Assembly (NCBI GenBank): GCA_013115125.1
Contig: JABANN010000375.1
Coordinates: 1-34,352, forward strand
DNA length: 34,352 nt
Source: Perkinsus olseni
Lineage: Eukaryota
Direction: 5' to 3'
Part shown: positions 1-31,798 of the stretch, piece after piece
Numbering within the stretch: the first letter of the stretch is position 1
How the letters are laid out: each line of letters opens with the position of its first letter
Notes under the pieces: generated by a model
Databases searched by the model: none
What the model saw: the letters and a program-made list of their open reading frames with translations, nothing else
Told to the model about the DNA's origin: nothing
Program-made: the position numbers and the translations under genes

Positions 1-8
1 GACGGGAG

Positions 9-671
9 ATGATTCTCGTTAACACGTACCCCAGAAAGAAAACTGGGGACTATGCGATGCGGTTCAGATGCCCGTTCTCTCGTGCGACAGGCTATGTCGC
101 GCAATGTCCTTACACTGGTTACATATATTGCAGCGAGGATGATGTTTTCACCCTCGGTCTACCACCATCCCCTCATCCACCACATGAACCGCTGGACCCG
201 TCCAAGGCACGAGAGGAGGAGCGGAAGGCTAAAATGGACGATGTCATCTTGGACTGTCTCAGAAAGGACGCGAACGTCGACACCACTCTGAGAGAGCTTG
301 AACGGAATGGGCTTATCGCCGCTGGGGTCGACTCAAGAACCATCAAATACATCTACAATCGGAGGTACGTTCTGAAGAAGGCCCTAGACCCGGGGGTCCC
401 CAGATGTGTTGGCGACTCGACGGTAGAGCTCGAAGAGTTCTGTCTGAATAATAGTGCTATCCCTCCTCCGGAAGAACCCCACAAGATATTTTGCATCACC
501 CATAAGTCAACCGCCGCCTCATACTATTCATACTTCACGACACGTCACCTATTAGAGAAGGGAGTAGGTGAGGTCCATAGCGACGGTTTAGCCGTCGCTG
601 AGGATATTGGGGTCCGCTGGGCTTGCCTTCGGCAAGCATATTCCCCGACGCCCCAGGATTTGAAGTCCTGA
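9..671 (+). mobile_element. Truncated transposase-like ORF (Mutator/MULE-type or related DDE superfamily), N-terminal part only
   Basis: Intronless 220-aa ORF. It has a C..C..H..H zinc-finger-like segment (FRCPFSRATGYVAQCPYTG...PHPPHEP), a helical segment (TIKYIYNRRYVLKK...ELEEFC...IP) and then YFTTRHLLE...VHSDG, which resembles the strand leading to the first catalytic Asp of MULE transposases. The ORF then runs through hairpins into an antisense tRNA fragment and stops. Assignment by motif recall only. Confidence 0.5.
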
Positions 672-698
672 CCGAGCACCAGCCCGGGTCACCAGTGC
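644..698 (-). pseudogene. 5' fragment (nt 1-55 of 87) of tRNA-Sec(UCA), broken in the variable-arm loop
   Basis: The reverse complement reads GCACTGGTGACCCGGGCTGGTGCTCGGTCAGGACTTCAAATCCTGGGGCGTCGGG, identical to the first 55 nt of the copies at 6527 and 27283. It then diverges abruptly to GAATATGCTTGCC; the T-arm and 3' acceptor strand are absent. Confidence 0.93.
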
Positions 699-1426
699 AA
701 CTTAAAAATATTGGACCATTTTTCTGCGTGGCCGATGTTCGTCTCAGTACAACCAAACAATATTCCACCTCGTGTCGATCAGAAACGTTTTCTACGACGA
801 TTCTTTCTAGTCCCGTCACGGGACTCCCGTGTGAGGAGCTGCTGAGGCCCACAGTCACGAAACAAGCACGTGTGTTGCGAGATGTCGCCAAAAGCGATTT
901 TTTCTCGCGAGTAAAGGAGAGATGAATCATATACCCATTCCGAACAACTGGATACCACGCCAACTCGTCATCGAATCCTGTCATGCACTTCTTGCAAACA
1001 TGGGACTCATTGAGTCCGACTCAACACTTCGACCATTACAGCAGACGTTCGACAAATTTTCACGTTCGAGTGTGAGACTGGATACACTCTTAGTCCCTGC
1101 GGTAAGTTACTAAGGGCTTGTGAACGTCCGTCCAGCTCAAAGCACTCTACACTACCCTCTTGCTCAACCGGATGTTTTTCTGGCGCGCGACCCGGTATTT
1201 ACGGTGGGGCCCTGTTCCTAAGTACCCACCAATACCAATTTTCCCACAACGCCAACTACTACCACCCACTAGGTCCTCGCCCATCTATTCCTCCAATAAC
1301 TTAACAACTCAAGTAGTACTCACGAGTAGGAGTGAAGGAAGACTTCACCGACGAAAACGGTGATAGTTATGACTACAGGGGTAACCGAGCGGCAGCAGCA
1401 GCGGTAGCAGCAGAGTGACTTGGAAA

Positions 1427-4689
<3,263 letters not shown>

Positions 4690-5315
4690 GAAACGAATAC
4701 AACTAAAATAAGAACAACAATGGCAATACGCTCCCAACCGTTCAGGGCGAGAATCTTGAGCATGTAAGCTCACTTGTTAAAGGCAAGCAGCAACCTTGGA
4801 TACTCGGCCCGGATCAAAATACGCAGTTTTAACTTTAAAATTCCACGAAAAACGGAACAAATAATTTTACAATCGAGTAAACTCACGAAGGCAAGGGATG
4901 GGTGTATGAGAGAACCTCCGCCGCGAGGGGCCTCCTCCAGCCACCCGTGAGATCCCCTCGGCTGCTCGACATGAAATCGCACAAGAATTGTTACTTCGCT
5001 CCGCTAGCACGAATCTCGCCCGCCAAGTAGATCGATTACCCTTGGAATCGCTGCCGATCTACCTCCATCAACCCCTTCGGAGACTTCCTGCCAAGGTAAT
5101 GCTCGGGGCCGATCTAATCGACTTCATTCACGGCTGACTGTGGGCGTGGTAGTGATTGTGAGACTTGTCTGAAGCGTGCGAACTTAACGTGGTGACTCTT
5201 GACGTCGTCTAGTGCTGTGATGAGTCGTTGTACTCGTACCACTGAACTGGATGGGGAATATTCACGAAGGCAGTGATGGTTGGGTGGTGATGATCAGCGA
5301 CGTTATTCTTATCAG

Positions 5316-5887
5316 ATGGTACGTGTGTCTGTGCTGCGTGACTGCCTCAACTCAATCTTGAACGCCGAGAAGGCCGGTAAGAGGCAGGTCCTCATCCGAC
5401 CTTGCTCCAAGGTTATCGTCAAGTTCTTGCAGGTCATGCAAAAGAACGGTAATAATATTGACCTATCGGGCTCGAATAGTGCTTCGCTCCACGGCGTTCC
5501 TTGCTAAGGGGTGTGTGTTCATGTTGTCTTGTCGTTCAGGTTACATTGGTGACTTCGAGATCGTCGACGATCACCGTGCTGGCAAGGTCATCGTCAACCT
5601 CAACGGTCGCATCAACAAGTGCGGCGTCATCTCTCCCCGTTTCGATATCGAGACCGGTGATATTGAGCAGGTACTACTGGCGATGGGTTAGTCTTACTCG
5701 ATGGATGTGTGCGTCGCTAGAGTGCTCGGTAGCTTCATTAATGGTGTTCTCATTTCAGTTGGCCTCTGACCTCCTGCCCTCTCGCCAGTTCGGTCACGTC
5801 GTGCTCACTACCCCTTACGGCATCATGGACCACGAGGAGGCCCGTCGTAAGCACACTGGTGGCAAGGTCGTCGGCTTCTTCTTCTAA
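5316..5887 (+). CDS. RPS15A: 40S ribosomal protein S15a (uS8)
   Basis: Exons 5316-5448, 5540-5670 and 5759-5887 joined by GT-AG introns give 130 aa: [29 protein letters not shown]...[16 protein letters not shown]...[38 protein letters not shown]. Probable 5'-UTR intron at 5096-5315. Confidence 0.97.
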
Positions 5888-6526
5888 GTCAACAACAATA
5901 ACTCCAGCCACTTGAAGAGAGGCAACATGCGGCAGCCGCTACTAAGCCACTGCAACAGCCACTGACTCTCTGGGGGGTCGAAGGAGGTTTCTCCAGGAAG
6001 GCAGCGATAGCCGTGTTGTGTTCCCATAGTGTTCATACAGGAGACCTTGTCGGGATGGTATCGGAAAAACTCGAGTACCTCAAACCCGTGAAATGAGGGA
6101 GATTGTCTCGCAGGAAGGGGAAGGTCGTCAGCTTTAACGGTTGGGTATAGCTGGGCCTTCGCGGATAACGGTTGTGAGAGGATGAGCGCTTCAACACCTC
6201 TGAAGGGCGAGTGGGGGAGTCTGCCAGGAATAGTTTCCTGTAGTCACCGTGGGAGTGACATGAACACATAACCACAGCTGCTGCCACGAACTCTCTCTTG
6301 GAATTGCCGCGCGCTGGCGTATTCGACCGAATGGTACCTTCGAGGTGGACGTGCTAGTTGCCGTGGCTGGTCCGCTGTACGCATAAACCTGAGAGCCCAG
6401 GGATCCGAGATGAAGTTCGATCTGCCGGCGGTGAATTCTAGACAGCTACAGGCGAACTTCCTGTTCATTGCGGTTTAGCTATATCTGATTCGGTCTCTCA
6501 CAGAGTGTGCGAGGTCTTCATGTGGT

Positions 6527-6613
6527 GCACTGGTGACCCGGGCTGGTGCTCGGTCAGGACTTCAAATCCTGGGGCGTCGGGAGGCGCAGGCGTTCGATTC
6601 GCCCTCCGGTGCG
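6527..6613 (+). tRNA. tRNA-Sec (selenocysteine, anticodon UCA), intact
   Basis: 87 nt with a 9-bp acceptor stem GCACTGGTG/CTCCGGTGC (one T-T), 6-bp D stem CCGGGC/GCTCGG with TGGT loop, 6-bp anticodon stem with CTTCAAA loop, long variable arm GCGTC-GGGA-GGCGC, 4-bp T stem GGCG/CGCC with TTCGATT loop, discriminator G, then TTTTT. This is the eukaryotic 9/4 tRNA-Sec architecture. Confidence 0.93.
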
Positions 6614-6924
6614 TTTTTCGCATTCTAGCGTTCTTGGCTAGTGGTAGTCTGTGAGCGGGCCACGGCGCAATTATAGCAGTAGAATCCAGAGTGTCACGAC
6701 TCTGAATGTCATATAAGTATGACGAACCGTCAAAGATTGTGTGAGAGAAATACGATATCATCTTAGTGAGCGCCTAGGAGGAACTGGATGTTACCAGTGA
6801 GGTGGCAAGTCCCAAAACCAAACTCCAAAAGCAGGATGGGGAGTGCTATTCGACCATGCTGATAGTATCAGCGAGTGATTCCACGTGTAGTCACTCGCTA
6901 GTCTTCCTCCACGCCTGCGGCTCA

Positions 6925-7061
6925 GCGAACGGTTGCTTTAACCCGTGGGCAGGGGGGGGGGTCACTCGAGTCCTTCTTGGCGACCCCGTCGCTGGCGAAC
7001 GGTTGCTTTAACCCGTGGGCAGGGGGGGTCACTCGAGTCCTTCTTGGCGACCCCGTCGCTG
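6925..7061. repeat. Tandem duplication of a ~70-bp GC-rich unit (2 copies)
   Basis: Units 6925-6994 and 6995-7061 are identical except for the G run (10 vs 7 G). Confidence 0.9.
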
Positions 7062-8152
7062 GCCTCTCATTCACGCCACCTCATCGGCCCGAGGAACCCG
7101 CGCTGAGACTTGGGTGGGCGCGAGGACGCTATGAGGTGCTACGACCTTCACCAGCAAGACCAAATACCCATTGCCATCACGCCCACGGACGCGGTAGTTC
7201 TACTGATACACAGAGTCTCTGACGTGAGTCGCGAGCTCTTATCGTCACAAACTTCAGTGGCGGTTTGAAGGCGTCGTCATTAGTAGCTACTCCCTTCCTT
7301 GTGATACTGGTCAATGCTGTAGAGATCTTATCTCGAAAATCTCCCGCGTGCTGGAATTACAAGGAAACGCTACATTGAATTCATTCAGACAAACCAGCGG
7401 TTCATCTAGGTTTAAACCGGTGCATGTTGTGCGCGCAATGGGACGCCTGGTGTCCCAGTTGTGCCTCTGACGCCAGCAGGCTAGTCATCAGAATGCGTCC
7501 GGCGACGGGTCGAGCATATGACTGTCGGCTGTTTGTCGACGCCATAAAGTCATCTACCTGACGCCTTCGGGAAGTGGCTTGCGCCTACAGACCCGCGGCT
7601 GCGATGCGAAGGATCGCCTTCGTCTCCGACATAGTTTTCCTTCGCGTCACCCTCGCAACCTTCGTGTGAGATTGTCGTCCGTTTTGACGGCGCCAGTAAA
7701 TCACCGCGCCTCGTCCCGTCTTAAGGTCCGAGGCTCTGCGCTTCGTTCAGCGGAGCATATGCCCGTTGCGCTCCCGTAGCGTTGGAGGTCGGAGAGGCTC
7801 CGAGCCTTCCGTGTTGGTTGAGATTCCTTCGGTTCGCGCGACGTTTTGTGTTCACCTCTACGTCACATGCGCGACCACTTCGCTCTCTTTCAGCTCGAAC
7901 GCTGCAGTTTTCATCGATAAACTTATCTCTAGAATCATTTGACATCTTCGGCTATTCCGCCATCGATAACAGGGTACCTGTGTATCATTCGCGGGGTTTT
8001 CGGTCGTATTTGGTCGAGGGCGGCTAGGAGTCGGATGTGGACACGTACCAACGTGGAAGCGTACGAATGCCCGATGACGACCAATAGTGTTTATTTGCGG
8101 TCCTCACTGTGAGAACCTCACAGCTTTCTTATCTCTCCACGTACACTTGTCC

Positions 8153-9121
8153 ATGTCCTCGAAGACAGTCGCGGTTATCGGTGCTACGGGTTTGATCGGT
8201 AAAAGTATCAGCTTGGCCCTGTTGAGGTTGGGCCATAAGGTGATCGCTGTTACTCGGAGCATCTCGAGTAAGGAGGTTATCGCCAAGGAGCTCGAGAACG
8301 CCGGGGCTAAGGTGAGTGTACTCGGGCATGCCTAATGCTATTGCCTATCTACTATCAGGTAGTTGAGGTCCCCAATCAAAACGATGAGGCCGCATTGGCT
8401 ACCGTCTTCCGTAAGAACCAAGTCGACACTGTTATTTGCGCTATACACGGCTCAGCTCCGGTCATCAGAGATGTCGAGGGTCACATCATCAACGCTGCCG
8501 TAAAGAGCGGTACCGTTGAGCGCTTCTGCCCCGACGAGTTCGGTGTCCATACAGGAGCCATTCCGTGGGGTTTGGCTGATCTCTTCGATGCCAAAAAGGA
8601 GATGCAGGAGCTCGTCCGCAAGTCTGGGTTAAAGTGGACCGCCGTATTCGTTGGGGGGGGTGTTTTCTTATTTTGCCCCCTCACGGGAGTCAGGTCGCGG
8701 ATTCGTCGTTACCTTCGGCGATCGGGATGCTCTGTTCTTCACCAACAGCCTACAAGATATCGGAATGATGATAGCCCGGGCCTCTACTGATGAGCGCACC
8801 ATCAACAAGTACGTGCAGTTCCAGGTTAACCCGACCACTCAGGCAAAGAATCTGGAGATGGTCAGGAAGATCTGGCCGAAGACGGATTTCCCTGAGAGGC
8901 ACATTGACGAGGCCGAGCTCATCCGCCTTATGCGCGACGAGAGCGATAACGACCTCTGGGTTATCCTGTACGCCATCTTCTGCATGGGCCGTATGGATTG
9001 TCTTGATTTCCCCGAGACCATGTTGGGCGATGGTATCTTCCCTGCCGACTACAAGTTCACCACCATTGAGGAGTGCCTCTCTGATTCTGCCTTCGTCTTC
9101 CCAGACAGCAAGAAGGCGTAG
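8153..9121 (+). CDS. NmrA/isoflavone-reductase-like NAD(P)-binding oxidoreductase (one intron at 8312-8358; apparent frameshift at the G8 run 8653-8660)
   Basis: Rossmann motif VAVIGATGLIG, then VDTVICAI, RFCPDEFG, K...LKWTAV, followed in another frame by GGVFSYF...TFGD...DIG...DERTINK. Confidence 0.85.
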
Positions 9122-10353: not shown

Positions 10354-13300
10354 ATGGCGGACTCCTTAGACAGTCTCATCCTGGGCGATAAGGCGGGACC
10401 GTTGACTCGCACGCGTGAAGAGATGGCTGCGGCTGAGGAGAATAGACGATTGGAAGAAGTACGACAGGATAAGGCTGAACTTTGAGTGCTGATGCTAAGC
10501 TGAGTGCTTGCAGGAGATCGCTCAGCTACAGTCAGAGCCTCTGCAGTCCGAGAAGACCACAAAGGGCATTGTAGCACTCCCAAGTAGTCATTATGCCCGC
10601 CGAGCACTGCACGAATCAGACTGACTTTTAGAGCAGCACGCTGAGCCAAACGATAACCACGAGGATGAGGAGCTCGAGGCGCTCTTCAACGAATGGAGCA
10701 CCGAGGGTGGGTTCATCTATATGACACGAGATTGGATACCACTACACTGGCACTCGATTAACTCAATACCCAGCCTGAACGATCAGGCGAGAAGTCTAGA
10801 CCCCAGGGGCCTCATGCTCGTTATACCGTACCGACCCCATCAGCCGACCAGGGAAACGGCAGACTTAACAAGCGACTGAAACGAAAAACTGAGTCCGATG
10901 GTGAAGGAAAAGAGGGAGGAGAGCCTTCACAGTTCAGCACCACAACCGCGGCGGCTGCGCTACCATCACTGAGTGGTCGGTATGGGCCGTGCATTGCTAG
11001 TGCGTCGATTAGTCGGCGGACCGAGTGTGCCCGGCAGCGGAGGTCTCCTCCTCTCCCTCGTTGAGAGGATGTGGCCGTTGGAATACTCTAATACTCAGGT
11101 CTTCTCGGCAATCCACAGCCACACGAGAAGCCCAGCGGGGCATCAGACCAGTAAGGAACAATGTCCTTAAGTCAACGGTTGGAGCCAACTGCATGCAGGA
11201 AGCCAATCAAGCAAACTGCACTGAGGGAGGCAACTAAGGCTTCTGCGGCCCTCCGGTCGAACGAGAAGGAGAATCACGTTGCTTCCGCAGTAGCAGCAGT
11301 AGCGGTGAACCCGCCGCTATTGACAACCACATCCGGTGAGTTTTGAAGACTACCAACGGTCCAGCCAGGGTTCGTCGTAGGTCTGCTCAGTAAACGGCTC
11401 TCAACGGGGCCCACGCAGGGAGCCCCACCGTCAAGCATTGGAGACCGATCCTTCAACGCCTCCTCGGTCGACAAACCGACCCCCGCCGGCGACCTCAACG
11501 AAGGAATCTTCGGTAGTGGGCCACTGCCCTCCGAGGAGGCGCCAGTCTATAAGCCAGATCACCGGATGACTAAACTCTTCTCTCCTTCAACTCACACTCG
11601 TCTAGAAGAGTCTTTTGATCCGAGTAGAAACAACAACAACCTGCAGCCGCTCTCCGAAGAGCTCATCAAGTGAGAACTCATTTTGCGTGTCGCCGTGCGT
11701 GCTAGAGCTTTTGGGTATGGTCAGTTCGCTGGACCTCTCTGGCTTTCAGGGCCAACCTCGGACGCCACGAAGCCGAGAGGGTGGCTAGGAGAACTCAGGA
11801 GAACCTGGAGGTATGCTGCCTCTATAGGAAATAGTTTAACTCCATTCACGCCCGAGATGCCATCGCCTCAGGCCAAGATAGCTGACTTGGAGAAAGCACG
11901 TGCCATGGATGATTTGCGGGCCAGGGATGAGGTTAGCGGTCGAACGTGGCATAATACCCGCTACTCGAGATCGCCCCCTCGACTGTTTTTCACACACCGT
12001 CACAGGTCGAACGGCTGAATTGGAAGGTCGAAAGAGCCAGAGAGGAATTAGAGGATGAACGCGCCCGCTATGAAGGTCGGTCCCGCTGGCAGTTGGCGTA
12101 CTCGGGAATACCGCCTTGACCGAGCTGGTCGGCTCAGAACGTCTACGAAGACTTGAAGAGCAACGCAGTTTGGATAAACAGCGTTCGGAGGAGGAGCTGC
12201 GGCGTGCAGTCTCCGATGAGACGAAAAGGTACGCCGCGTCACTGACATTATCTGAGATGCTCCCAACGAGCAGGCAAGAGCTGGCCACAGAGCGGATAGT
12301 GTATCAACACCGTCGTGAGGTAGAAGCCCTCAAATCCGATCACGAGAGGGAGATCCACATGATGCGGCGGAAACACGGTGAGTCCCTCAAGCCGCCATGG
12401 ATGTTGAATCAATGCCCTGGACGCCTGTTCTCACTGTACTTCAGAAGCCGAGATCGCATCATTAAAGGCATCGTCCGGGGAGAGAGAAAAACTATCCGAA
12501 CTCACAGCGCAGGTGCAACTACGAGGTCGACACCATTGGGCCCGGGGTTGATGTCATTGCTCGTAGATGGTAGCCCACATGGCCCAGTGGGAGGACATGG
12601 CCAATGCTGTGAAGGGCAGTACGGCAATCACGGAGCAGATGAAGTGGGGCGAGGTTCTGGCGGCCCTTTGGACAGCTCCGAACCTCAGAAACGAGCAGCT
12701 CTCAGCGAGGGAGAACTTCGTGAAGTCACTGGAGACCTCGATGAAGGAGCAACAGCGACAGATTGAGGTTCGTCAGCTACCGGTGCCGCGGTCGACGGGT
12801 GGGCTCTGCTAGGTCGAACGATGTAAACTGAGTGAGCTCACCCGAGAGATAGAGGAAGAGCAGAAGTAGGGGATGCATAGGGCTGAGTTCCGACACGGGA
12901 TGCTCTCGCAGGCAACACCGACTGACTCGAGAGACGGAGTCGCAAAGGCTGCAGCTTGAGCATGTACGGCTACAGGAGCTGCAGGAGACGGCACGACAAA
13001 TGCAGCGAGATAGCAAGTGAACTTTCGCCTGGCTGTCGGGCCTCGCCCATAGCGGCACTCGGGCGGTGGGCAGTCGAGCAGAACTAGCTCGGCGTCTCAG
13101 CATCACTGATGAATTGACTTGATGAAGCTGCGTTTGGGAGGTCAGGTCCGCCCTGGTCTCGAGGGAAACCGCAGCGGAAATGGCCGTTCGCGATTTGAAT
13201 GAGCAGAAGCTGGCCTTGGAGTCTCAGAGGAAGGCTTTCGAACTCGACTGTGAAGATCAAGAAAGGAGGCGGGTCCGAGAGGAGCGTTCAATCGGGAAGA

Positions 13301-14358
13301 TGATTCTCAGGTTACGTTCGGAGTGGGAGAAGCTACGATGCGTGCAGAAGTCCACCGACCTCAGCCTGACAGCAACACAGAGGAGAGCCAACGAGACCGA
13401 GGCAGCGGTTGCACGGCATCGAGATCGGGCCGCGGCCGAGATAGAAGCCATCGAGAGGCAGCGTGTGCAGGCAGGGATTGAGTCGTGCCTAGCTCCCACA
13501 GGCTGGACTTTGCTAGGTGGAGGAGGACACGGCAGAACTGAATAGGAAACTCAACCTCCTTCGAGACCAGGAAGCGGACGTTAGAGCCGACATGGCCGGC
13601 GTGGTGATGACGCTCATTACACCACTCGAGCGCAGCCTCTGTCCTAGGTCGAGCTGGCTGCACGACTCAACAGTCGGGCGCAGCAGGTCGCCCAAGCCTA
13701 TGGGGCAGCTGAGCATGTTAGGGCGGAGGTGAGCTCGCCTGTCGCCCCCGCGGCCGGTAGGCGTTCGTCGCTGCAGGCACACAGACTTCATGCTGAGCTG
13801 AATGAGAGGGAGGAGGAACTTACCCAGGGGGCGAGGGAGTTGGAGGAAATGAGGAAGTTGGAGCTGACAAGCGTACCGGTCATCGTTGTGACGCTACTCC
13901 TCCCAGGGAGATCGAAGAGCAGCGGTTGAGAGTGATGGAGGCGGAGGCCGCGGTCAGTGCCCGAAAGCTCGAAGCGATCGAGCAGACTAAGCCGTTCAGC
14001 GTCACCGCTGGGACAGTTGGCTCCTTGCCGAACGTAGCGGAGGGCTCGGGTTGAGCATAACGGCTTATGAAACCTCTACCGAATTATTGCGTGATGAGGG
14101 AAGTTATCTGTGCGTCTATGTGGTAACTTCATTTAGTTGACGGTACCCTCAGGAGGAGCCGGCTTACCACCGGCCTCGCAAACTTACCATGGCCAGGCGA
14201 TAAGCATGTCCCGAGGTGAGTATTAATGGTGAATGTAGGGACTGGCAATTTCTTGGAGGCTTACTAACTCAGTCACCACGAGACCGCAGCTGTTGCCCTC
14301 CGCCGAGACCGACAAGTGGAGGAAGTTGAAGGAGGAGGCCATGCAAGTTGATGAGTGA
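10354..14358 (+). CDS. Large multi-exon coiled-coil protein (possibly FBF1-like); boundaries approximate
   Basis: A series of short E/R/Q-rich exon-like ORF pieces bounded by GT/GC..AG (e.g. SERLRRLEEQRSLDKQRSEEELRR, EQLSARENFVKSLETSMKEQQRQIE, AVRDLNEQKLALESQRKAFELDCEDQERRR). The N-terminal part is low-complexity and the exact exon chain is not resolved. Confidence 0.55.
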
Positions 14359-19307: not shown

Positions 19308-19864
19308 CTCATCACCGAGGGCGTCGCCAAAGACAAACGAGATTCATCTTCATGCAGGTCGGTTACGAGCCTTATCAATCGGTCAGTACTGCATTTTATG
19401 GTAAGATTCATGTGATATACTTTTCACAATGATTGGCCATCAAGTGGCCCAACCGCCACAGAAGAAGCCTCTTCTTCCACGAGGCCGCTCGTTTGCTACC
19501 TTCCTCTTGCGTTGAGACCGGGCAGCACGGCCCCTCGCGCCTTCAACGCTCCGTTGTTTCTCTGAAATATCTTTCCTCACCACAGTGATTGATGGATGAA
19601 CTCAAGCTGAGATTGCGCAAAGCAATAAGATACATGGAGGGAGGCCGCTGCCACTAAGGGCTGATGACGATCATAATACAGCAGCTTCATTCAACAACAA
19701 CCCCAAAACTGTGGCAGTAAAATATCGACTAATAACGTATGAAAACACATTCTCCATCGTAGGCCGCTCGACGGACCCCTGCGGTTGATAAAAAGAGATT
19801 ATAATAAACAGTCTATACATATGGCCTTAAGCTGGCCTCTATACCGCTCCTTTCCTAACGTATG

Positions 19865-22800
19865 CTAGAAGCGAGTGAAGACCTCCATGCCTGTGGAGTG
19901 TAGGAGCAGTACTCGATCTAGGGACTTGGTGAGGCAGTCGCAGTAGGCCATGTAGGAGGCACAGTCCTTCTCGGTCTCGGTGGACCAAATGTCGGGCATA
20001 TTCATCATCACCAGAGCACTGTCTTTGCTTCGCTCCGCTATTATCGAGTTCATCCTCATGTACGGGCGTGCGCTGTTTGGATGGACCACAGTAGATGGAC
20101 GACGCTGCGACGCTCCTCCTGATGGCACCTTGAGGGAGTTGGCCGACTGAGAATTTGAGCTGAACGCGTTGACCTGTGCCAGACGATCCATGTAGCTCCG
20201 CCTCTCCTCAATCTTTTTGTGGACGTTAGACAAAAGATCTGATTCGACGTTCCACTCGAGGTCCTCATCGAAGGGTTTGGTGTTCGGGACACGACGCTGC
20301 TGTAGTGATGGGTGGTGCGGCAAACTTGAGGGATTCTGCTCTTCCTTAGCCGGGAGAACTCCATTAAAGAGGTCGTCAAGGCTCGTGGGGAGGGTATTTT
20401 GCTGAGAGAAAGGAACATGAGGCTGTCTGCAGAGAGCCGTGCCCGACTCACCCTTTTGAAGCCGATCTCGGTGGCAGCCAGGTCATCTCCTCTATTGTTG
20501 ACCTTCATCGTCCAGTCGTAGGTGTAGGGTTCGATCATGGCATCATCGTGGAGGACCACCACCTCAATAACAACATTGTCCAACAGCCTATGTCCGGTGA
20601 GGAGCTTCCGCAAGTTGCTCTTTGCCGTCTCCGTGGCCTCGTCGTCCGCATGCTCCATCACCAGCAAGACCCGTACTTGGCAGCCTCGCCAGACCTTGTG
20701 CTGTTTGAGGAAGTGGGCGCAGAGAAGGAGAAAGCCGCCATCGTGTATCATCCACCAGACGTCGATCGTGCCATTCATGGGGATCGACCGCTCCCCCACA
20801 GGCATGAAGGACATGTTCTTCACGCACATGATGGCCTTGCCCGTGTTGGTGGCGAACTGCAGCAGACGAACAAACTCGCAAGCTTCATCCGACCGACCCT
20901 GCCAGTTAGACGGCCAGGCCAGTAGGACCGAGTTAGGCCTCAGGCCTCCGATACCAGCGAGTTGGACGGCGTATGAAGCCCCTTCCCCGAAGGAGGGGGC
21001 CACCACTACATCCGCGAAGCCTTGTAACGACTCCTGAGCCATCACTTCAGCGACCCGGCTCCTCTCAGCCGCTACCTGAAATGACGAGGACCGTCGTAGT
21101 ACGGCTGCTGAGCACACCGAGTATAGCTTACCCTCTTGTCGTCACCATCAACTACAATAGCTGATGCAATGCACATGCCGCGGCCCTTCCTCATTTGCCC
21201 GTAGAAGCGCAGCAGATCATGGCAACCCATCTTTGACAGCATCGAATTGGTATCCCCATCCCCCCCAGAGTGGTCAGCACCATTACCAACTTGGTAGAGC
21301 ACAAGTACCTGTAGTAAGGGACTGCGGGACAGAAGGGCTAGTGACTGGCTACCTGTGGCCTCCAGTTAATCCTCTTGTGGACCTTCTCTTGCAACCCCTG
21401 CAGCGCCGTCAACGCGAAGTTGTACCGCAGACCGGCAAAGCCACTACCCCACTCGGCCTCGGCCCCGACCCAGTCCAAGTAGAGGTAGAGCAAGGCAGCC
21501 AGGACAAGCACGCCGATGGTCCAGTAGACCGACACTATTATCATCACCGCCAAGGCAGCCACTACACCCACGAACGAGGACAGGATGTACCACAACCGAA
21601 ACCGCCTTCTGAAGATGCCAGCAGGCCGCCACGTGGGGGTCTTGAGTAGAGTAAGCATCAGGCAGGAGACGTTCATGAAGGCGTAGCAGACGAGGAAGCA
21701 CATCGTGAGTAGGGGAGCGATCAGATCGAGATTTCCGATCATCGACAGGGCGATAGACAGAATTGTGGTTATCAGAACTGCCCGGGCGGGCTCCCTCTTG
21801 CGGTTCACCACACTGAGTGGCTTCAAGATGGGCAGGAGATTGTCGGCTGAAATGGACTGCATGAGTCTAGGGGCTACAGTAAAGCACTGCAGAGCTTGGG
21901 AGACCGAGGAGATGAAGATACCAACGTAAGCTGGTATCCTATGTGGCCACACAATCTGACCAACAATGGTCCTTGCTTCATCGTTATTGACCCCGGCCAG
22001 TCGGCGAAGATGTGCAGCGGCAGCCTCTGTGCCATAAGGGCCATGCTTTAGGTAATCGCTCGTGGCTACAGCACCCCAGAGTAACATGAATGATAGGTAC
22101 CTGTACAGCAGCAGATCTCCCGTGATGAAGGGCTCAAGCAACTGGCCCTCTACGACATTCTACTCTTACGAGAACTTCAACGGTGGAGAACGGAAAAGGA
22201 CAGTCCCAGGAGAATCGCCGTCGGTGGCGCAACGTAAAGGTTGAGCTGAACGACGGGTCGATTACTCATATCACTCCCGAGAATACTGGCGATGAGTTCT
22301 ATGGCTGTACGTCGGAGTATTTCTCCAATCTTGACGGCTACTGCCCTTGCTACTTACATGAAAAGGGATATCGTGATCGCTCCGAAAGTGCCGTTCCTGA
22401 TGCTCTTGGGTGGATCCCTCAGTACATCAGCCCGGTTAGCTCCCGATAGTATACCAGTGAAGCAGGGGAACACTATAGACAATACCGTACCAAACCGAAC
22501 GCCATCATCATAGGAGGGGCCGAGGTTGTCGCTGAAGGTGGAGGCACTGAGCCCGGTGACCCCAGCCATCTCTATGGCATCACTCTGGGGTGACACGAAG
22601 ATACCAACGTAGAACATGAGAATAGTAAGACCGACTACTACGACGAAGAAGACGCCGAGCTTAGTGACAACATGGATGCCGCCCCAGACCACGACGTTGA
22701 GGATGAGGACCAGGGAGCCTCCGAAAATCTGATGGTAGCCCGGTATGTCGGCCAAGGAGGGAGCTGCCATGACCAAAGCGTCAACAGCTCCAACGGACTC

Positions 22801-23211
22801 TAAGACGCCTAGAAGGGCGAAGCCTAGGTAGTAAGTGATACCGACGCTGGCTCCGGCATAGGGCCCAAGGGATCTAGACAGCATATGGTAGGGCCCACCC
22901 TCAGAGACAACACCACCAGAGGAGGCGATAGCACTAAGGCAGGAGGTAGTACAGAAGGCCACAATGAAGGACAAGATGACAGCCAGGCAGGCTTGGCCCA
23001 CACCGGCATTGCCGACGACATAGAAGAACCTCAGGAATATGAGGACCCCCCACATGTTCTCGCAAGTGGGTACTAAAACTCCAGTGAAGGTTCCCTTTAG
23101 CTTCTTCCGGGCAGCCGCCGCCTCTTCATCACTGCTGCCAGTGGCAGTGGACCCGCGCTTGGGCTTGTCACACGACGAGGCAATGCTGCCCCGGAGGGTC
23201 TCCCCAAGCAT
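19865..23211 (-). CDS. Cation-chloride cotransporter, SLC12 (KCC/CCC-like), multi-exon
   Basis: GTFTGVLVPTCENMWGVLIFLR, GGPYHMLSRSLG, FPCFTGILSGANR, APRLMQSI, IAPLLTMCFLVCYAFMN, EWGSG, NWRPQ, GIGGLRPNSVLLAWP, GTIDVWWMIHDGG and C-terminal RVLLLHSTGMEVFT are all SLC12 hallmarks. The start codon is uncertain. Confidence 0.93.
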
Positions 23212-23729
23212 GGTGGCATCAGCACCAAAGATAGTCAAGTCGTTCTGTTGAACCTGCTCACCATCATCACTTCTGCTGGAGGGATGAGTGACCTAAAAAG
23301 AGACCAGAGAATGCCGAGTAGGCCGAGAGCCAATGCCATCGTGCCACATTGCCAGCCCTCTGCGCCTGTGAAGCGGCCCATTTGCGACTCTGGCGACCTT
23401 TTTCGAGGGTTTTCCGCCGTTTCGTCACCAAATCAAGCGCAAGACAGCCCTAGTTTATTGCACCATCGGTTAGATGACGATGAGAGCTTTCGATCGCGGG
23501 CCACTAGAAGCCCAAACTCGTTGGCAACAGGACATTACGAGGAGAGGTCCCTTTTCAACCCTGTAGTACCTTGACGTTAAACAGGTTGTTGAGATTGGTG
23601 ATATTAGTTTCCTTATCAGTTGACGCTGGATTATGGTGTCCCTTATCATCGGGGGCCATTGGTAAAGTTCAAAGTGGCTGGTGTTGCTGCTATCGGAAGT
23701 ATCACCATTAGACGATGTCTCCCTCCCGG

Positions 23730-25240
23730 AGCGGCGTCACTGCTGCTGCTACTGTCCCCAGCTAGGGAGTATCACTAACTACGGGAAGCCCGGGCCAGCC
23801 ACTGAGCGAGAATCATCGTCCGTGCCACTGCGCTAGTCTGCTACAACGAAGGTAGACTTACTCTTTCGAAGGAGGTCGTTGAAGTGTAAAATGTTGATCA
23901 CTCGGCGGCGGAGCGATGCAGCCATCATCCGCGACGGCGCAGGTTGAAAAGGTTGGGCCTTACAGCCGAAATCTCCTATGGCGTCGTCGTCATCCGGTAG
24001 CAACTGGCCTCCTCCTGCCGGTCCTCCTGCTCCCCTTCCCACCTCACCTGTAGAGGACAGCACTATCGAGTATCATCAGGTAAAGATCCTACCAGTATCG
24101 GTATCTTAGAGGTTGTACTGGCAGGTCGTGCAATTCTCGTCTGGTGAAGAAAACCAGATGGAAGCCAGAGAAGATGAAGAAGGCTACCACGAGCCTGATA
24201 GCAGCGATGTCCCCACCGAGGAGGAGGAGGTGGTCACCCTGTAGCCTGCATGGGCGTTCGAACCCCCTCTTAGGACCCAACCCCAGCAGTAGTCACCTCA
24301 CCTACCTCACCCTACATACCATCGCGACGAAGCAGCAGTACCTCGGGTCTGGTCACCAGTGGTGGTAGTGGCTACTACCTCACAGCGGCCACTGGACACA
24401 GCCCTCACCCTCCAGGAGAGTACGAGGACCGATACTAGACTGTCGTTCAACTCGGTGTCATCAGGCAGCTGATGGCTTCGATGTTCCCTGATGTCATTTC
24501 TGCTATCGGAGACGCTCGGCAGTCAGAAGACTCCACTGGCTCTCGTCAGGGTGTCCCGGAGGAGGCCTCGGACGTCGAGTCATGGCGGGTCGGTTGTGGT
24601 TGTTATCATTCAGTGTCCTTCGTAGCTGCTCACCACTCAGGACTACTCTAATGACCTCCTAGCTGGTAAGAGCATCTTCTTCGGCCACAGGACCTCCGTC
24701 AACGTCATGCTTGTTATCGGAGGGGGTGGGTAGGGCAGTGCCATCATCAGGGCTGTTCATCCCTGCTGTAGGTAGCAAGCCCACTACCTTGCACGCCCAC
24801 TGGGAGGTCCTCTGCAGTTCCTTCTCGTACTTCGAGAACATGAAGGATTGCCGCATGAGGGAGTCCGTCGAAGGGGTTGTAAGTCCTCCTGTTATATTGT
24901 CATGGCATGCTGCTCTCTTAGGCCTACTTCCCGACTGATTCACCCCGAGCCTGGCTGACGCAACTCAAGCGTGTGTGAGTGCCCGCAGCAGCAGCATCAG
25001 CAGCAGCAGCACTCGGTAGGCTATCACCTCGCCATACTAGGTACCCTCCCTACCGCCAACTGGACTTTACTGATGCTGTGGAGGTCATATCATTGGTCGA
25101 TCGACTGCAGGCGTCGTGGTTATCGCGGGAACTGCAAGGGGTAAGCTCGGATACTCCTTCGTCGAGCAGCATCTTTGGTGCTAGGTGCTGTCTGATGAAT
25201 CATACGGAGATCAGCGGACCCCGGCTATTGCCGACATGCT
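23730..25240 (-). CDS. Probable multi-exon hypothetical gene; boundaries uncertain
   Basis: Minus-strand ORF pieces (24659-24943, 23833-24063) flanked by splice-like signals; no recognisable domain. Confidence 0.3.
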
Positions 25241-26183
25241 GGCTGCCCACGGCCTTTCTGACGTAAGTGCCTGACGCTTGGCTAAGTTACACCTAGGGTC
25301 AGGTTGTGGCCTCGTGGTTTAATGAGAAGTATTGGCCCGCTCTCAACGCCTGGCGATGTGTCAGCGAGTGCAAGAACGTTCAGGCCCTCCGGTGTGCGGC
25401 ACTGTAAGGGGGCGAGGGAGGATACTGTAGAACGCTACTTGGGGACTCATCATCCGAATGTGACATGTCCACTACCCTTAGCATCCGTCTTCAAGGGGCT
25501 TATAGTGAGGGAGCATCAGGTCGATATTCCCTGCGCCGCCACAGTGCGCGATGGCGCTCCGTGGGTAGACTAGGGGACGCCCCAACCCACAATCTACCGG
25601 CCGTGGACTGGCGTGTCCAAACAAGTGTCTGGTCGCACTTCGCCTTTGTGCTTGGGAAGTTCGTGAGAGAGATCAAGGCACTCGAGTGGAACAGACCTAC
25701 TTTTTATAGTTTTCAATCATAAATCATTCGTTTATACCTAACTTATATATACCTAATTTCGACCTAATCATGATACATTCGTACGTCTCGCCTCTCTCCT
25801 GACAAATTTAACAAGCGGGCTAAAGTAGCTTCGGTCGTAACTTGGCGGCGATTATGCGATAGTGATTGGCACTGTGGCTCAGGGGAGTTTTGCCGGATCC
25901 CTCGTATCAGGTATGTGTGCCATGAGGCCGCCTCAACTAAGTCGCAGGTGGAGCAGTTGAGGAAGACTTTACGAGACGCTAAGATGGAGTCCAGGGGGCG
26001 TCAGAATCGGATATCGCGGATGAAGAGCGCCGGGGAAATATTTTATTCGTAGCATACAAGTCCTGTCACTTTCCAGAGGTCCCAATGTCATCAGGATAAC
26101 TGTGGACTTTCATTCTCACTACTCGGTGTGTTGTTGTCAATTCATCTAAGTGGATGGTGCGGCGGCCGGTAGTGATTATTGTT

Positions 26184-27986
26184 ATGACTTCGGCTATTGC
26201 AAAGCAGCATCTCGTCAGTAACGGTAGGCCCACTACTGCGACAGCGTGACACTATTGCATCAGGCGATGGCTTGCCCACCGGCGCCACGACCGATACTTC
26301 CAACCGTCTGTTCACTCCGAAATTCGTACCTCTGTAGCTCTGGCATCGGGTCTGCCGGTAGTGGTTCAGGTGCTCACCCCTGGCATCAAGACTGAACGTC
26401 GAAGGAAAGCTGTTGAGGACTATATACAACCGGCTGAGGTGGGTGACGAGGAGTGTTGAGGGTTGATCTTGGGAGTGATGTCAGGTCTTCTGTGTCCGCT
26501 TCTCGCCTGATGATACTCTCATGGCTGCTTCTACCAGTAACGGACTCATTAAGATCTACAACTGTCGGGATGGAATGGAAGTCTATACGCTGCACTCGCG
26601 ACATACCGGTATGACTGGGCGAATGCTCTGCGGCGGCTATGGAGCGACGCGTTTCACAGGCGACATCGTCCAACCGATAACGCAAGTCCGCTGGCGTCCT
26701 GGAGGCAGCTCAGCGAAGACTAAGAACGTTTTGGTCAGTGTGAATGCTGAAGGAGTGGTAGGAGGTCATCGACTTCAGCGTTTTGCCGTGGAGGGGAATC
26801 CTACAGGTTTCTCACTGGCATGTTACCACCGGTACGTGCATGCATGAGGATACTGAAGAGGGGAATCAGCTCTTCTGTGTGGACTACTCGACAGATGGAA
26901 GCCAGTTCGCCACAGCGGGGAGGGAGAGGTGGCGTTCAGCATTGCTGAGCATGCTGGTGATTTGGACTTTGCGTCAGGGGCGTGTCTGTCTACGATGAGA
27001 ACACCAAGGCGTTGATCACGACTCTGAAAGGTGGAGATAGCCTGCACACTCCGGGCCATTCCAACAGAGTTTTCAGTCTCAAGTGACGAGCTAGTCGGAT
27101 GGCTGATGATGATGGTGGGTTTTGCTGTTTGCTGCTCAGATATCATCCGAAGGACCCGAATGTGATAATTACAGGCGGCTGGGACAACACTGTACAGTTT
27201 TGGGACGTCAGGAAGGGGTATAGTGTTCGCTCAATATTCGGTGAGTCAGGGTCGCGGAAATTGTTTAAAGTTTTCTCGTGGTGCACTGGTGACCCGGGCT
27301 GGTGCTCGGTCAGGACTTCAAATCCTGGGGCGTCGGGAGGCGCAGGCGTTCGATTCGCCCTCCGGTGCGTTTTCTTGTATTTTTTCTGACGCGTCTTCCT
27401 GTCAAGCCACGCGCAGGTTGCTCCTTAGGTCCGCATATCTGTGGTGACAGCGTAGACATCAGCAATGATGGTAAACGCATCCTAACGGGTAGTTGGAGGA
27501 TTGACAGGCAACTGCAAATTTGGGATTATGCGGAGGGAACTCTTATCGAGGACATACCGTGGAGGACCGGGGTGGGCAATAATCTCCTCCGGGCTGTCGT
27601 GCGGTGGTGATACTGAGGCAGCCAGAGAGTCCTCAGGCCTCCGTCACCCAGCCATGCATGCTCTACGCAGCACAGTTCAACAAGGGCCCTCGCTCTGGAG
27701 AGCTCATCTGTGCTGGTGGTAGCGGCGCCAATGAGGCCAAGGTCATGCACAGCAAAGGTCCAGTAGGACACCCCGATGCCTGGACGACTATCGGGACAGT
27801 GACAGGTTAGCTCGAGCTACCCGCGTCCGACTGAAGGGTCCATCAGGTGTGGATAAGGGCTGCTTTACAGTTGACTTCTCCTCTGGGGACTCCGCTGCGC
27901 CGGAGTTGGTGGCCCTGGGTGGTGGTGACGGTGTCGTTCGTGTGATGGAAATCGGCTATGAAGATGAGGGAGAGGAGGTCTTGTGA
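26184..27986 (+). CDS. WD40-repeat protein, multi-exon (one intron hosts tRNA-Sec)
   Basis: VFCVRFSPDD, LFCVDYSTDGSQFATAG, GHSNRVFSL, YHPKDPNVIITGGWDNTVQFWDVR, SIFG|PHICGDSVDISNDGKRILTGSW, LQIWD, FTVDFS; ends GEEVL-TGA at 27986. The start is tentative. Confidence 0.88.
27283..27369 (+). tRNA. tRNA-Sec (anticodon UCA), intact, intronic
   Basis: Identical to 6527-6613 over all 87 nt and followed by TTTT. Lies in intron 27241-27428 (GTGAGT...CCTTAG) of the WD40 gene. Confidence 0.93.
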
Positions 27987-31751: not shown

Positions 31752-31798
31752 TTGTGCTTTTTTTGCACAGCGGGCGGTAGATACACAGTTTTTTGAAG

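What the first reader, a model, noticed from the sequence alone, without database searches (positions are those of the whole stretch)
644..27369. Three identical tRNA-Sec(UCA) copies dispersed within 27 kb
Seen: copies at 644-698 (-, partial), 6527-6613 (+) and 27283-27369 (+). The two intact copies are identical, and identity extends only to GTGGT upstream and TTTT downstream (96 bp), with unrelated flanks, so this is not a segmental duplication. Known: tRNA-Sec is usually a single-copy or low-copy gene in eukaryotes. Inference: there is high demand for UGA decoding (large selenoproteome or UGA readthrough), or the tRNA unit itself is being copied or homogenised, or extra copies compensate for transposon attack.
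Basis: partly seen in the sequence, partly recalled or inferred. Interest (0 to 1): 0.78.

Follow-up and report, generated by a model that had tools for sequence, protein, structure and literature searches.

The report
Locally duplicated selenocysteine tRNA genes, Perkinsus
Two identical, intact selenocysteine tRNA genes and one broken copy lie within 27 kb of a Perkinsus (oyster and clam parasite) chromosome, most likely made by local copying of a small gene cassette in a genome where tRNA genes are generally present in many copies.

Summary
Two identical 87-nt tRNA-Sec(UCA) genes lie at 6527-6613 and 27283-27369 (Rfam RF01852, 73.4 bits against a cut-off of 47). An exact 55-nt 5' fragment lies at 644-698(-).

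The flanks are not fully unrelated. The three upstream regions share 16 of 80 positions, against 5.1±2.2 for random triples. The neighbouring tRNA-Thr shares nothing with them.

The window is from Perkinsus, close to P. olseni (98% identity).

- **Copy 3** sits in a 188-nt intron of a WD40 gene whose other seven introns are 41-65 nt. Removing the 132-nt block shared with copy 2 leaves 56 nt. This fits a small promoter+tRNA+terminator cassette having been inserted.
- **Copy 1** is fused at its break to a truncated MULE-like transposase gene. That is a rearrangement scar, not a clean transposon end.

Published work reports tens to hundreds of copies for ordinary tRNA genes in Perkinsus marinus. 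It also reports tRNA-targeting Dada transposons, an expressed TCA "Sec" tRNA, and separate Trp-like UCA tRNAs proposed to read mitochondrial UGA.

Sec is therefore not specially amplified in this genome, and nothing here shows high UGA demand. The finding is real but ordinary for this organism, of modest interest.

The parts
6527..6613 (+). Intact tRNA-Sec(UCA) gene, copy 2. It has the 9/4 fold, a 6-bp D stem with a 4-nt loop, a 5-bp variable arm, and G at the discriminator position.
   Evidence: (73.4 bits against 47; alignment shown)
27283..27369 (+). Intact tRNA-Sec(UCA) gene, copy 3, identical to copy 2
644..698 (-). 5' fragment of tRNA-Sec (copy 1). It covers nt 1-55, through the 5' strand and loop of the variable arm. 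The T arm and the 3' acceptor strand are missing.
   Evidence: 55/55 identical. (30.7 bits, below the cut-off of 47; the acceptor pairs are broken). (no third 3' half in the window).
6486..6526 (+). Upstream region of copy 2 that resembles the upstream regions of the other two copies. Candidate gene-external promoter.
   Evidence: (D1 block)
27242..27282 (+). Upstream region of copy 3 with the same similarity. It begins 1 nt after the start of the host intron.
699..778 (-). Upstream region of copy 1, weakly but significantly similar to those of copies 2 and 3
   Evidence: 32/80 and 31/80 pairwise; 16/80 three-way
6614..6618 (+). T5 run directly after the discriminator base of copy 2. It looks like a Pol III terminator.
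27370..27385 (+). T4 run directly after copy 3, with a T6 run 10 nt further on. It looks like a Pol III terminator.
27241..27428 (+). Host intron of copy 3: 188 nt, GTGAGT...TTAG, on the same strand as the tRNA
   Evidence: in 4 of 4 Perkinsus homologues, consecutive residues align on either side; 8 GT-AG introns, and the spliced frame is open for 356 codons.
26370..27986 (+). WD40-repeat gene (one source names the P. marinus homologue 'WD-repeat protein 51A') that hosts copy 3
3..643 (+). Truncated MULE/FAR1-like ORF, corresponding to about residues 83-291 of a 950-aa relative. It ends at the break of tRNA copy 1.

Best explanation
These are genuine eukaryotic-type selenocysteine tRNA genes in the nuclear genome of a Perkinsus species close to P. 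olseni.

I infer that each intact copy is its own small transcription unit. A Sec-specific upstream element of about 40 nt would act as a gene-external promoter, as in other eukaryotic tRNA-Sec genes. It is followed by the 87-nt tRNA and an oligo-T terminator directly after the discriminator base.

I infer that the copies arose by local, DNA-level duplication of this cassette of about 130 bp or a little more, not by a large segmental duplication. One cassette landed in an ordinary short intron of a WD40 gene.

The tRNA body stays identical through purifying selection, possibly helped by gene conversion. This is also inferred.

The third copy was once a full gene, since it keeps the upstream element. 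It was cut in its variable-arm loop by a rearrangement that also truncated a MULE-like transposase gene. It is now a dead remnant.

Having several copies reflects the general multiplicity of tRNA genes in Perkinsus rather than an unusual need to decode UGA.
For: **Shown here**
- tRNA-Sec identity and structure.
- A 96-bp exact block between copies 2 and 3.
- Sec-specific upstream similarity: 16/80 three-way against 5.08±2.2, with 12 of the 16 positions lying in -40..-1. The tRNA-Thr upstream region is at chance, 19/80 to each copy.
- T runs directly after both intact genes.
- No homology further out.
- Copy 3 lies in a 188-nt GT-AG intron on the host gene's strand. The seven other introns are 41-65 nt (mean 51), and 188-132 = 56.
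- Copy 1 scores below threshold and lacks its 3' parts.
- The adjoining ORF matches residues 83-291 of a 950-aa relative. The rest of that protein is absent from the window.
- Taxon: 98% identity to P. olseni and 83% to P. chesapeaki.

**From papers**
- P. marinus tRNA genes are present in tens to hundreds of copies (PMC3706591, section 10).
- A TCA 'Sec' species appears in 3'-CCA-selected tRNA libraries: 4 of 2966 and 4 of 2956 entries in P. marinus, and 4 of 3684 and 4 of 3495 in P. olseni (PMC9550989, supplement part 64).
- Vertebrate tRNA-Sec needs extragenic promoters (PMC2943599, abstract).
- Multiple tRNA-Sec genes occur in other eukaryotes, and their number does not correlate with selenoproteome size (PMC5330540).
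Against: - No expression or polymerase data exist for these particular loci.
- The upstream similarity could be leftover homology rather than a promoter. I recognised no TATA or PSE motif in it.
- The 55-nt dead fragment is still 100% identical. That needs either a very recent truncation or ongoing gene conversion, and neither is shown.
- The shared block in copy 3 starts 1 nt into the intron and overlaps the GTGAGT splice donor. A simple 'insertion into an old intron' does not explain this neatly.
- The genome-wide copy number of tRNA-Sec and of other tRNAs in this genome was not measured.
- The published counts are for P. marinus, from an assembly with about 1.5-fold redundancy.
- The LOTTE-seq table counts clustered reads, not genes. 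For example, it lists anticodon AAG 9-10 times in P. marinus, while 349 tRNA-Leu-CTT genes were counted.
- All three copies point the same way as the nearest protein-coding features I could assign. Co-transcription by Pol II, as in trypanosomes, would predict the same.
Confidence: 0.68

Rival explanations
1. The extra copies exist because the organism has a large selenoproteome or heavy UGA read-through and needs more tRNA-Sec.
For: Marine protists can have large selenoproteomes. Examples are 26-29 selenoprotein genes reported in Symbiodinium minutum and 96 in Emiliania huxleyi (PMC7539508, passages). A TCA 'Sec' tRNA is present in Perkinsus tRNA libraries.
Against: - The Secmarker survey found no correlation between tRNA-Sec copy number and the number of selenoproteins.
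- In the LOTTE-seq table, TCA/Sec is among the rarest anticodons, about 0.11-0.14% of entries.
- No SECIS family was among the 7 Rfam matches at E up to 5 in this window.
- Ordinary tRNAs in P. marinus are far more multiplied.
- I found no paper describing the Perkinsus selenoproteome. The search 'Perkinsus' + 'selenoprotein' gave 6 papers and 'Perkinsus' + 'selenocysteine' gave 10, and none was on this.
Confidence: 0.1
2. The tRNA is used as a UGA decoder outside selenoprotein synthesis. One possibility is import into the mitochondrion, which in Perkinsus reads UGA as tryptophan and encodes no tRNAs. Another is cytosolic suppression.
For: - Perkinsus mitochondria recode UGA to Trp: 11 of 16 Trp codons are TGA in P. 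olseni.
- All mitochondrial tRNAs must be imported (PMC9550989, section 8 and supplement).
[quoted passage not shown] TCA 'Sec' was counted in all four libraries.
Against: - The same paper identifies separate Trp-like Sup-TCA tRNA genes of about 72 nt, with a different sequence, as the likely decoders.
- The tRNA here has every tRNA-Sec hallmark and would carry Ser or Sec, not Trp.
- Nuclear genes in the window show no in-frame stops. Of 56 tblastn HSPs on the SLC12 gene, 54 had none, and the other 2 each held one stop where the alignment ran past the exon end.
Confidence: 0.03
3. The copies are retroposed tRNA transcripts (SINE-like or dead-on-arrival pseudogenes), like the human TRNAU2 pseudogene.
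For: Homology is confined to a very short unit. Human TRNAU2 lies in an intron of PARVB and is thought to be a retrocopy.
Against: - Similarity extends about 40 nt or more upstream of the tRNA's first base, which a transcript copy would not carry.
- There is no A-rich tail.
- No k-mer of 7 nt or more is shared between the two flanks of copy 3. Copy 2 has only two such k-mers, placed well away from the edges of the unit.
- Both copies are structurally perfect, with G at position 73.
Confidence: 0.05
4. Copy 1 is a tRNA-Sec gene split by a site-specific tRNA-targeting DNA transposon (Dada-like or MULE). Its 3' half would lie beyond the element, outside the window.
For: - P. marinus has five Dada families inserted at fixed sites inside tRNA genes. 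These elements are 4.7-11 kb long, lack terminal inverted repeats, and make 6-7-bp target duplications.
- The sequence beside the break encodes a transposase-like protein.
- Only 643 nt of window remain on that side.
Against: - The DNA within 14 nt of the break corresponds to about residue 291 of a 950-aa protein, which is the middle of the gene and not an element terminus.
- The ORF reads towards the break.
- Relatives show only sub-threshold SWIM and MULE Pfam matches (19.2 bits against 19.6, and 23.1 against 27.6). I did not compare them directly with Dada transposases.
- No Dada family targeting tRNA-Sec is listed in that paper.
Confidence: 0.1
5. Assembly artefact: collapsed or duplicated haplotypes produce false extra copies.
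For: The Secmarker authors found many multi-copy predictions that were identical including 100-bp flanks, and they attributed these to assembly artefacts. Perkinsus assemblies carry redundancy.
Against: Here the flanks differ completely beyond about 40 nt upstream and 4 nt downstream. The copies also sit in different gene contexts: in a WD40 intron, downstream of a ribosomal uS8 gene, and next to a MULE-like fragment.
Confidence: 0.02

Closest known systems
Two identical tRNA-Sec genes of Trypanosoma brucei (PMC2943599) and of zebrafish (cited in PMC5330540)
   Same: There are two or more sequence-identical tRNA-Sec genes in one genome. In T. brucei they lie close together, between neighbouring protein-coding genes and on the same strand as them.
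   Different: The T. brucei genes lack upstream Pol III elements and are transcribed by Pol II within a polycistron. The genes here have a shared upstream element and T-run terminators. Which polymerase transcribes them is untested.
Multi-copy tRNA-Sec in Fragilariopsis cylindrus, lancelet, house spider and others (Secmarker survey, PMC5330540)
   Same: There are several structurally sound, G73-bearing tRNA-Sec genes with differing flanks, and no link to selenoproteome size.
   Different: Those copies often differ by compensatory mutations, while the copies here are identical. Perkinsus was not found in the 3 supplementary files of that paper held as text.
Intron-located tRNA-Sec: the C. elegans gene and the human TRNAU2 pseudogene in a PARVB intron
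   Same: A tRNA-Sec sequence lies inside an intron of a Pol II gene.
   Different: Human TRNAU2 is degenerate, with C at position 73 and broken acceptor pairs. Copy 3 here is intact and identical to copy 2.
Vertebrate tRNA-Sec gene-external (type 3, U6-like) Pol III promoter
   Same: There is a gene-specific conserved upstream sequence that an ordinary tRNA gene in the same window lacks. The principle is stated in the PMC2943599 abstract.
   Different: I recognised no TATA box or PSE, and function is untested. That the vertebrate elements lie near -30 and -55 is recalled, not taken from a call.
Dada DNA transposons targeting tRNA genes in Perkinsus marinus (Kojima & Jurka 2013, PMC3706591)
   Same: The genus is the same. 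A tRNA gene is interrupted internally, and transposase-like coding sequence sits next to the break.
   Different: The known targets are tRNA-Ile, Leu, Gly and Tyr. The junction here lies in mid-gene of a truncated MULE/SWIM-like ORF. Only one side is visible, and no target duplication can be assessed.

Membership tests
Eukaryotic tRNA[Ser]Sec (Rfam RF01852) | Covariance-model score above the curated threshold, and better than the general tRNA model | tested here: met
   73.4 bits against a gathering score of 47 for both intact copies. Among overlapping matches of one clan, only the best is kept. ARAGORN also calls both SeC.
Eukaryotic tRNA[Ser]Sec (Rfam RF01852) | UCA anticodon | tested here: met
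   The anticodon is tca at position 36, in the loop CUUCAAA.
Eukaryotic tRNA[Ser]Sec (Rfam RF01852) | 9/4 fold: 9-bp acceptor stem and 4-bp T stem | tested here: met
   The alignment shows 9 acceptor pairs, one of them a non-standard U·U at pair 8, and the T stem GGCG/CGCC of 4 bp.
Eukaryotic tRNA[Ser]Sec (Rfam RF01852) | 6-bp D stem with a 4-nt loop, and a long variable arm | tested here: met
   The D stem is CCGGGC/GCUCGG with loop UGGU. The variable arm is GCGUC-GGGA-GGCGC (alignment).
Eukaryotic tRNA[Ser]Sec (Rfam RF01852) | G at discriminator position 73 | tested here: met
   Base 87 is G, followed by TTTT. G73 is judged essential in PMC5330540.
Eukaryotic tRNA[Ser]Sec (Rfam RF01852) | Serylation, conversion by PSTK and SepSecS, and delivery by eEFSec to SECIS-dependent UGA codons | not testable with these tools
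   No genome or proteome of the organism was on hand. Collections that could hold it were closed or cover prokaryotes only.
Eukaryotic tRNA[Ser]Sec (copy 1, 644-698) | Complete cloverleaf scoring above threshold | tested here: not met
   It scores 30.7 bits, below 47. The T arm is absent and the acceptor pairs are broken. No matching 3' half is in the window.
Pol III gene with a gene-external promoter (type 3-like tRNA-Sec unit) | Conserved upstream element specific to this gene class | tested here: inconclusive
   The upstream similarity is significant (16/80 against 5.08±2.2) and tRNA-Thr lacks it. No known motif was recognised and no functional test was done.
Pol III gene with a gene-external promoter (type 3-like tRNA-Sec unit) | Oligo-T terminator just after the gene | tested here: met
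   T5 follows copy 2, and T4 then T6 follow copy 3.
Dada transposon insertion in a tRNA gene | Element terminus at the break, with a 6-7-bp target-site duplication on both sides | not testable with these tools
   Only one side of the break lies in the window. The other would be left of position 1.
Dada transposon insertion in a tRNA gene | Dada-type DDE transposase (DxxH motif, N-terminal CCCC and C-terminal CCHC zinc fingers) | tested here: inconclusive
   The adjoining ORF is only an N-terminal piece of about 210 aa. Its 950-aa relative has a sub-threshold SWIM match, and another relative a sub-threshold MULE match. No direct comparison with Dada proteins was made.
Retroposed tRNA pseudogene / tRNA-derived SINE | Homology limited to the transcript, with flanking target duplications and an A-rich or simple tail | tested here: not met
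   There is upstream similarity beyond +1. No flanking repeats or tail were found.
Segmental duplication | Homology extending over neighbouring genes or kilobases | tested here: not met
   Sensitive blastn and six-frame blastp over ±3 kb found only the tRNA block.

The most novel reading that the evidence does not exclude
In Perkinsus the mitochondrion reads UGA as a sense codon and imports all its tRNAs. The Trp-like UCA tRNAs proposed for that task were not seen as full-length reads, whereas a UCA 'Sec' tRNA was counted in every library. The boldest reading not excluded here is that the multiplied tRNA-Sec genes serve a second role in UGA decoding, in the organelle or in read-through, beyond SECIS-dependent selenocysteine insertion.

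A milder novel reading is that a tRNA-Sec cassette of about 130 bp is itself mobile at the DNA level and can seed or enlarge introns.
Probability: 0.04. Interest if true: 0.85.

Novelty: new member of a known kind. Interest (0 to 1): 0.3.

Why it matters
tRNA-Sec is usually treated as a single-copy marker gene for selenocysteine use, so a cluster of identical copies stands out. Placing the window in Perkinsus changes how it should be read. This is a genus in which ordinary tRNA genes number in the tens to hundreds and in which transposons target tRNA genes.

What remains useful is threefold:
- a candidate Sec-specific upstream promoter element in a perkinsid;
- a clear example of a tRNA cassette of about 132 nt sitting in, and tripling the length of, a short spliceosomal intron;
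- a dated 'scar' where a tRNA-Sec gene and a MULE-like gene were truncated together.

These give concrete handles for studying how tRNA genes multiply in this genome. They also matter for annotating the Sec machinery of a commercially important mollusc parasite.

Tried and rejected
1. **Reassigned UGA in nuclear genes.** I ran tblastn of 40 SLC12 homologues against the window. Of 56 HSPs, 54 had no stop, and the other 2 each held one stop where the alignment ran past the exon end at 22357. This gives no sign of UGA as a sense codon, although only about 500 codons were covered.
2. **Segmental duplication.** Rejected.
3. **Selenoprotein genes or SECIS elements near the tRNAs.** The Rfam scan at E up to 5 gave 7 matches, none of them a SECIS family.
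4. **Retroposition.** No target duplications or tail were found.
5. **A functional variant cloverleaf for copy 1.** cmscan could only force a poor alignment. The fold is no better than shuffles (z 0.32).
6. **Rest of the MULE-like protein elsewhere in the window.** I ran tblastn of 9 relatives. Seven hit only 3-629 and two hit nothing.
7. **Perkinsus in the Secmarker supplements.** There were 0 occurrences in the 3 files held as text.
8. **Papers on the Perkinsus selenoproteome or its tRNA-Sec genes.** The searches found none. The only trace is the TCA/'Sec' row of a LOTTE-seq table.

**Not done**
- I made no scan of genome contigs, because it holds only bacteria and archaea.
No other Perkinsus locus could therefore be fetched. 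Genome-wide copy number, synteny in other species and the far side of copy 1 all stayed unchecked.
- No structure or complex prediction was run, since none bears on the question.

Full report
**1. The observation**

ARAGORN reports three tRNA genes in the window. They are tRNA-SeC(tca) at 6527-6613(+) and 27283-27369(+), and tRNA-Thr(agt) at 31678-31752(+). Rfam's tRNA-Sec model (RF01852) scores both Sec genes 73.4 bits against a gathering score of 47 (E 2e-13). Because overlapping matches within the tRNA clan are reduced to the best one, the Sec model beat the general tRNA model.

The alignment shows the eukaryotic tRNA-Sec anatomy:
- a 9-bp acceptor stem, with one U·U at pair 8;
- a 6-bp D stem with a 4-nt loop;
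- a 6-bp anticodon stem with loop CUUCAAA;
- a 5-bp variable arm;
- a 4-bp T stem;
- G at the discriminator position, followed directly by a T run.

The first 55 nt recur exactly at 644-698(-), which makes 3 matches with 0 mismatches and none in 100 shuffles. The 3' 31 nt occur only twice even at 3 mismatches. The exact block shared by copies 2 and 3 is 96 bp, made of GTGGT, the 87-nt tRNA and TTTT.

**2. A correction on the flanks**

The upstream regions, anchored at the tRNA's first base and compared without gaps, are more alike than chance.
- Over 60 nt the identities are 30/60 (copies 2-3), 25/60 (1-2) and 24/60 (1-3). The background is 14.9±3.3.
- All three agree at 16 of 80 positions. 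Random triples from the window give 5.08±2.2, and 0.0001 of 20,000 reach 16. Twelve of the 16 positions lie in -40..-1.
- The upstream region of the neighbouring tRNA-Thr matches each Sec upstream region at 19/80, which is chance.
- Downstream of TTTT there is nothing (8/40, 13/60).
- Nothing further was found within ±3 kb by sensitive blastn or six-frame blastp, apart from two short weak hits that I regard as chance.

The repeated unit is thus a compact cassette: about 40 nt or more of upstream sequence, the tRNA and a T run.

**3. Whose genome this is**

The window has short GT-AG introns and about 53% G+C. An exon of an SLC12 cation-chloride cotransporter (22354-23292, minus strand; Pfam) first matched dinoflagellate fragments at about 57%. 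When longer proteins were allowed, it matched two Perkinsus olseni proteins at 98% and a P. chesapeaki protein at 83%. The WD40 gene gives the same picture. The window is from Perkinsus, close to P. olseni, a perkinsid parasite of molluscs and a relative of dinoflagellates.

**4. Context of each copy**

*Copy 3.* It lies inside an intron of a WD40-repeat gene, on the same strand. In 4 of 4 Perkinsus homologues used (P0173-P0176; P0177 and P0178 were left out), consecutive residues align up to 27242 and resume at 27425-27428. With eight GT-AG introns removed, the frame stays open for 356 codons. The tRNA-bearing intron is 188 nt. The other seven are 41-65 nt, with a mean of 51. Subtracting the 132-nt block shared with copy 2 (D1) leaves 56 nt. 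This is what one expects if a cassette of about 132 nt was dropped into an ordinary short intron. One awkward detail remains: the shared block begins 1 nt into the intron and overlaps its GTGAGT donor.

*Copy 2.* It lies about 640 nt downstream of the last exon of a ribosomal protein uS8 gene on the same strand (Pfam Ribosomal_S8, E 4.8e-6). I could not say whether it is intergenic or intronic.

*Copy 1.* It is a remnant. It scores 30.7 bits, below the cut-off of 47. It has no T arm and no 3' acceptor strand, and it folds no better than shuffles. Yet it keeps the shared upstream similarity, so it was probably once a complete unit.

Directly at its break (643/644), an ORF on the other strand (3-671) runs into it. 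That ORF has no Pfam hit. The ESM Atlas places it among FAR1/MULE-like proteins, which is a lead only. An exhaustive HMMER search found 10 relatives. One is an identical 220-aa record. Another is a 950-aa protein that is 59% identical, with its residues 83-287 matching the ORF's residues 1-205. tblastn extends that match to residue 291, at window position 629.

Relatives carry only sub-threshold SWIM (19.2 bits against 19.6) and MULE (23.1 against 27.6) matches. Two of them show a CFxHMWRN stretch, which I read, from recall, as the C/DxxH transposase motif. The remaining 660 or so residues are nowhere in the window: of 9 relatives, 7 hit only 3-629 and 2 hit nothing.

Two truncated things therefore meet within 14 nt. 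I read this as a rearrangement breakpoint, not a clean transposon end.

**5. What the literature adds**

- *Secmarker survey* (PMC5330540; passages and section 11 read). tRNA-Sec is generally assumed to be single-copy. Even so, 151 genomes had two or more G73 predictions. Zebrafish has two identical genes, and a diatom had eleven non-identical predictions. There was no correlation between copy number and selenoprotein number.
- *Aeby et al.* (PMC2943599; abstract and passages). T. brucei has two identical tRNA-Sec genes in adjacent intergenic regions of a Pol II polycistron, and Pol II transcribes them. The C. elegans tRNA-Sec gene is intronic. Vertebrate tRNA-Sec needs extragenic, U6-like promoters.
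- *Kojima and Jurka* (PMC3706591; sections 5, 10 and 13 read). P. marinus has five Dada transposon families inserted at fixed sites inside tRNA-Ile, Leu, Gly and Tyr genes. The authors counted 349 tRNA-Leu-CTT, 116 Gly-GGA, 46 Ile-ATT, 23 Tyr and 9 Ile-ATA genes, with roughly 1.5-fold assembly redundancy.
- *Gornik et al.* (PMC9550989; passages, section 8 and supplement parts 23 and 64). Perkinsus mitochondria read UGA as Trp and import all tRNAs. Two Trp-like Sup-TCA tRNA genes, whose sequences differ from the tRNA here, are proposed as the decoders. The LOTTE-seq table lists anticodon TCA, labelled Sec, with 4 entries of 2966 and 2956 (P. marinus) and of 3684 and 3495 (P. olseni). Those entries are clustered reads, not gene counts. 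They do show a CCA-tailed tRNA typed as Sec in the RNA pool, among the rarest anticodons.

**6. How it most likely works**

*Shown here:* two structurally complete, identical tRNA-Sec genes, each with a shared upstream element and an immediate T run; a dead third copy; and the compactness of the unit.

*Inferred:*
- Each intact unit is transcribed on its own by Pol III from a gene-external promoter, as in other eukaryotes.
- The units arose by local DNA-level duplication of the cassette. Three Sec-derived loci lie within 27 kb, against one other tRNA gene in 34 kb, and one of the three is inverted.
- The tRNA body is held identical by purifying selection, possibly with gene conversion. Conversion would also explain why the dead 55-nt fragment is still perfect. 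A very recent truncation is the alternative.
- The multiplicity is one instance of the general tRNA-gene multiplicity of Perkinsus.

I put this at about 0.68.

**7. Rivals**

- *High Sec demand* (0.10). Nothing here supports it, and the survey data argue against a link.
- *A second role in UGA decoding, such as mitochondrial import* (0.03). It is attractive because of the organelle's UGA=Trp code. However, dedicated Trp-like UCA tRNAs exist, and this tRNA would carry Ser or Sec. The nuclear SLC12 gene shows no in-frame stops.
- *Retroposition* (0.05). The upstream similarity and the lack of target duplications contradict it.
- *A site-specific transposon splitting copy 1* (0.10). It is possible in this genus, but the junction lies in mid-gene and only one side is visible.
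- *Assembly artefact* (0.02). The flanks and gene contexts differ.

**8. Novelty and score**

Multi-copy and intronic tRNA-Sec genes are known elsewhere, and multi-copy tRNA genes are known in Perkinsus. My searches found no paper describing tRNA-Sec loci or the selenoproteome of Perkinsus. This is a new member of a known kind. Interest is 0.3. It is a solid and tidy case, with a candidate Sec-specific upstream element and a nice intron-insertion signature, but it is not surprising once the organism is known.

Genome-wide counts, synteny in sister species and the far side of copy 1 could not be checked, because no collection holding eukaryotic contigs was open.

Noticed in passing
window 3-671 (+): This ORF of 220-222 aa corresponds to the N-terminal part (residues 83-291) of a 950-aa MULE/SWIM-like protein family. 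The family has only 10 detectable members in 1.8 billion representatives. The ORF is truncated exactly where the tRNA-Sec fragment begins, and its last 9 codons read through the antisense tRNA.
   Followed up: yes
window 560-643 (-): The 84 nt just after the break of copy 1 fold into two perfect hairpins (7 bp and 8 bp). The energy is -29.8 kcal/mol against -16.5±2.7 for shuffles (z -4.96). They lie antisense to the MULE-like coding sequence. Their meaning is unknown.
   Followed up: partly
window 6925-7063 (+): About 310 nt downstream of copy 2 there is a perfect tandem duplication with a period of 67-70 nt. It shows as families D2 and D3 (34- and 42-nt blocks at 100% identity).
   Followed up: no
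window 31678-31752 (+): This is the only other tRNA gene, tRNA-Thr(AGU), at 67.2 bits. A T7 run starts 8 nt after it. Its upstream region shares nothing with the Sec genes (19/80). AGT is the most frequent anticodon among the rows of the published Perkinsus LOTTE-seq table that I saw (164 and 163 entries in P. marinus, 201 and 196 in P. olseni).
   Followed up: partly
window 19865-23292 (-) and 26370-27986 (+): The SLC12 cotransporter and WD40 genes are neighbours here. Their P. chesapeaki homologues carry consecutive locus tags, FOL47_010039 and FOL47_010038. This suggests conserved gene order between the species.
   Followed up: no
window 12001-14000: This is the stretch with the highest G+C (0.583) and with strong G and A excess on the + strand (GC skew 0.156, AT skew 0.192). 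It overlaps a 230-aa ORF (12074-12766, +) that has no Pfam match.
   Followed up: no
window 27241-27246 / 6485-6490: The block shared by copies 2 and 3 starts 1 nt inside the host intron of copy 3, so it overlaps that intron's GTGAGT splice donor. This leaves open whether the cassette supplied the donor site.
   Followed up: partly
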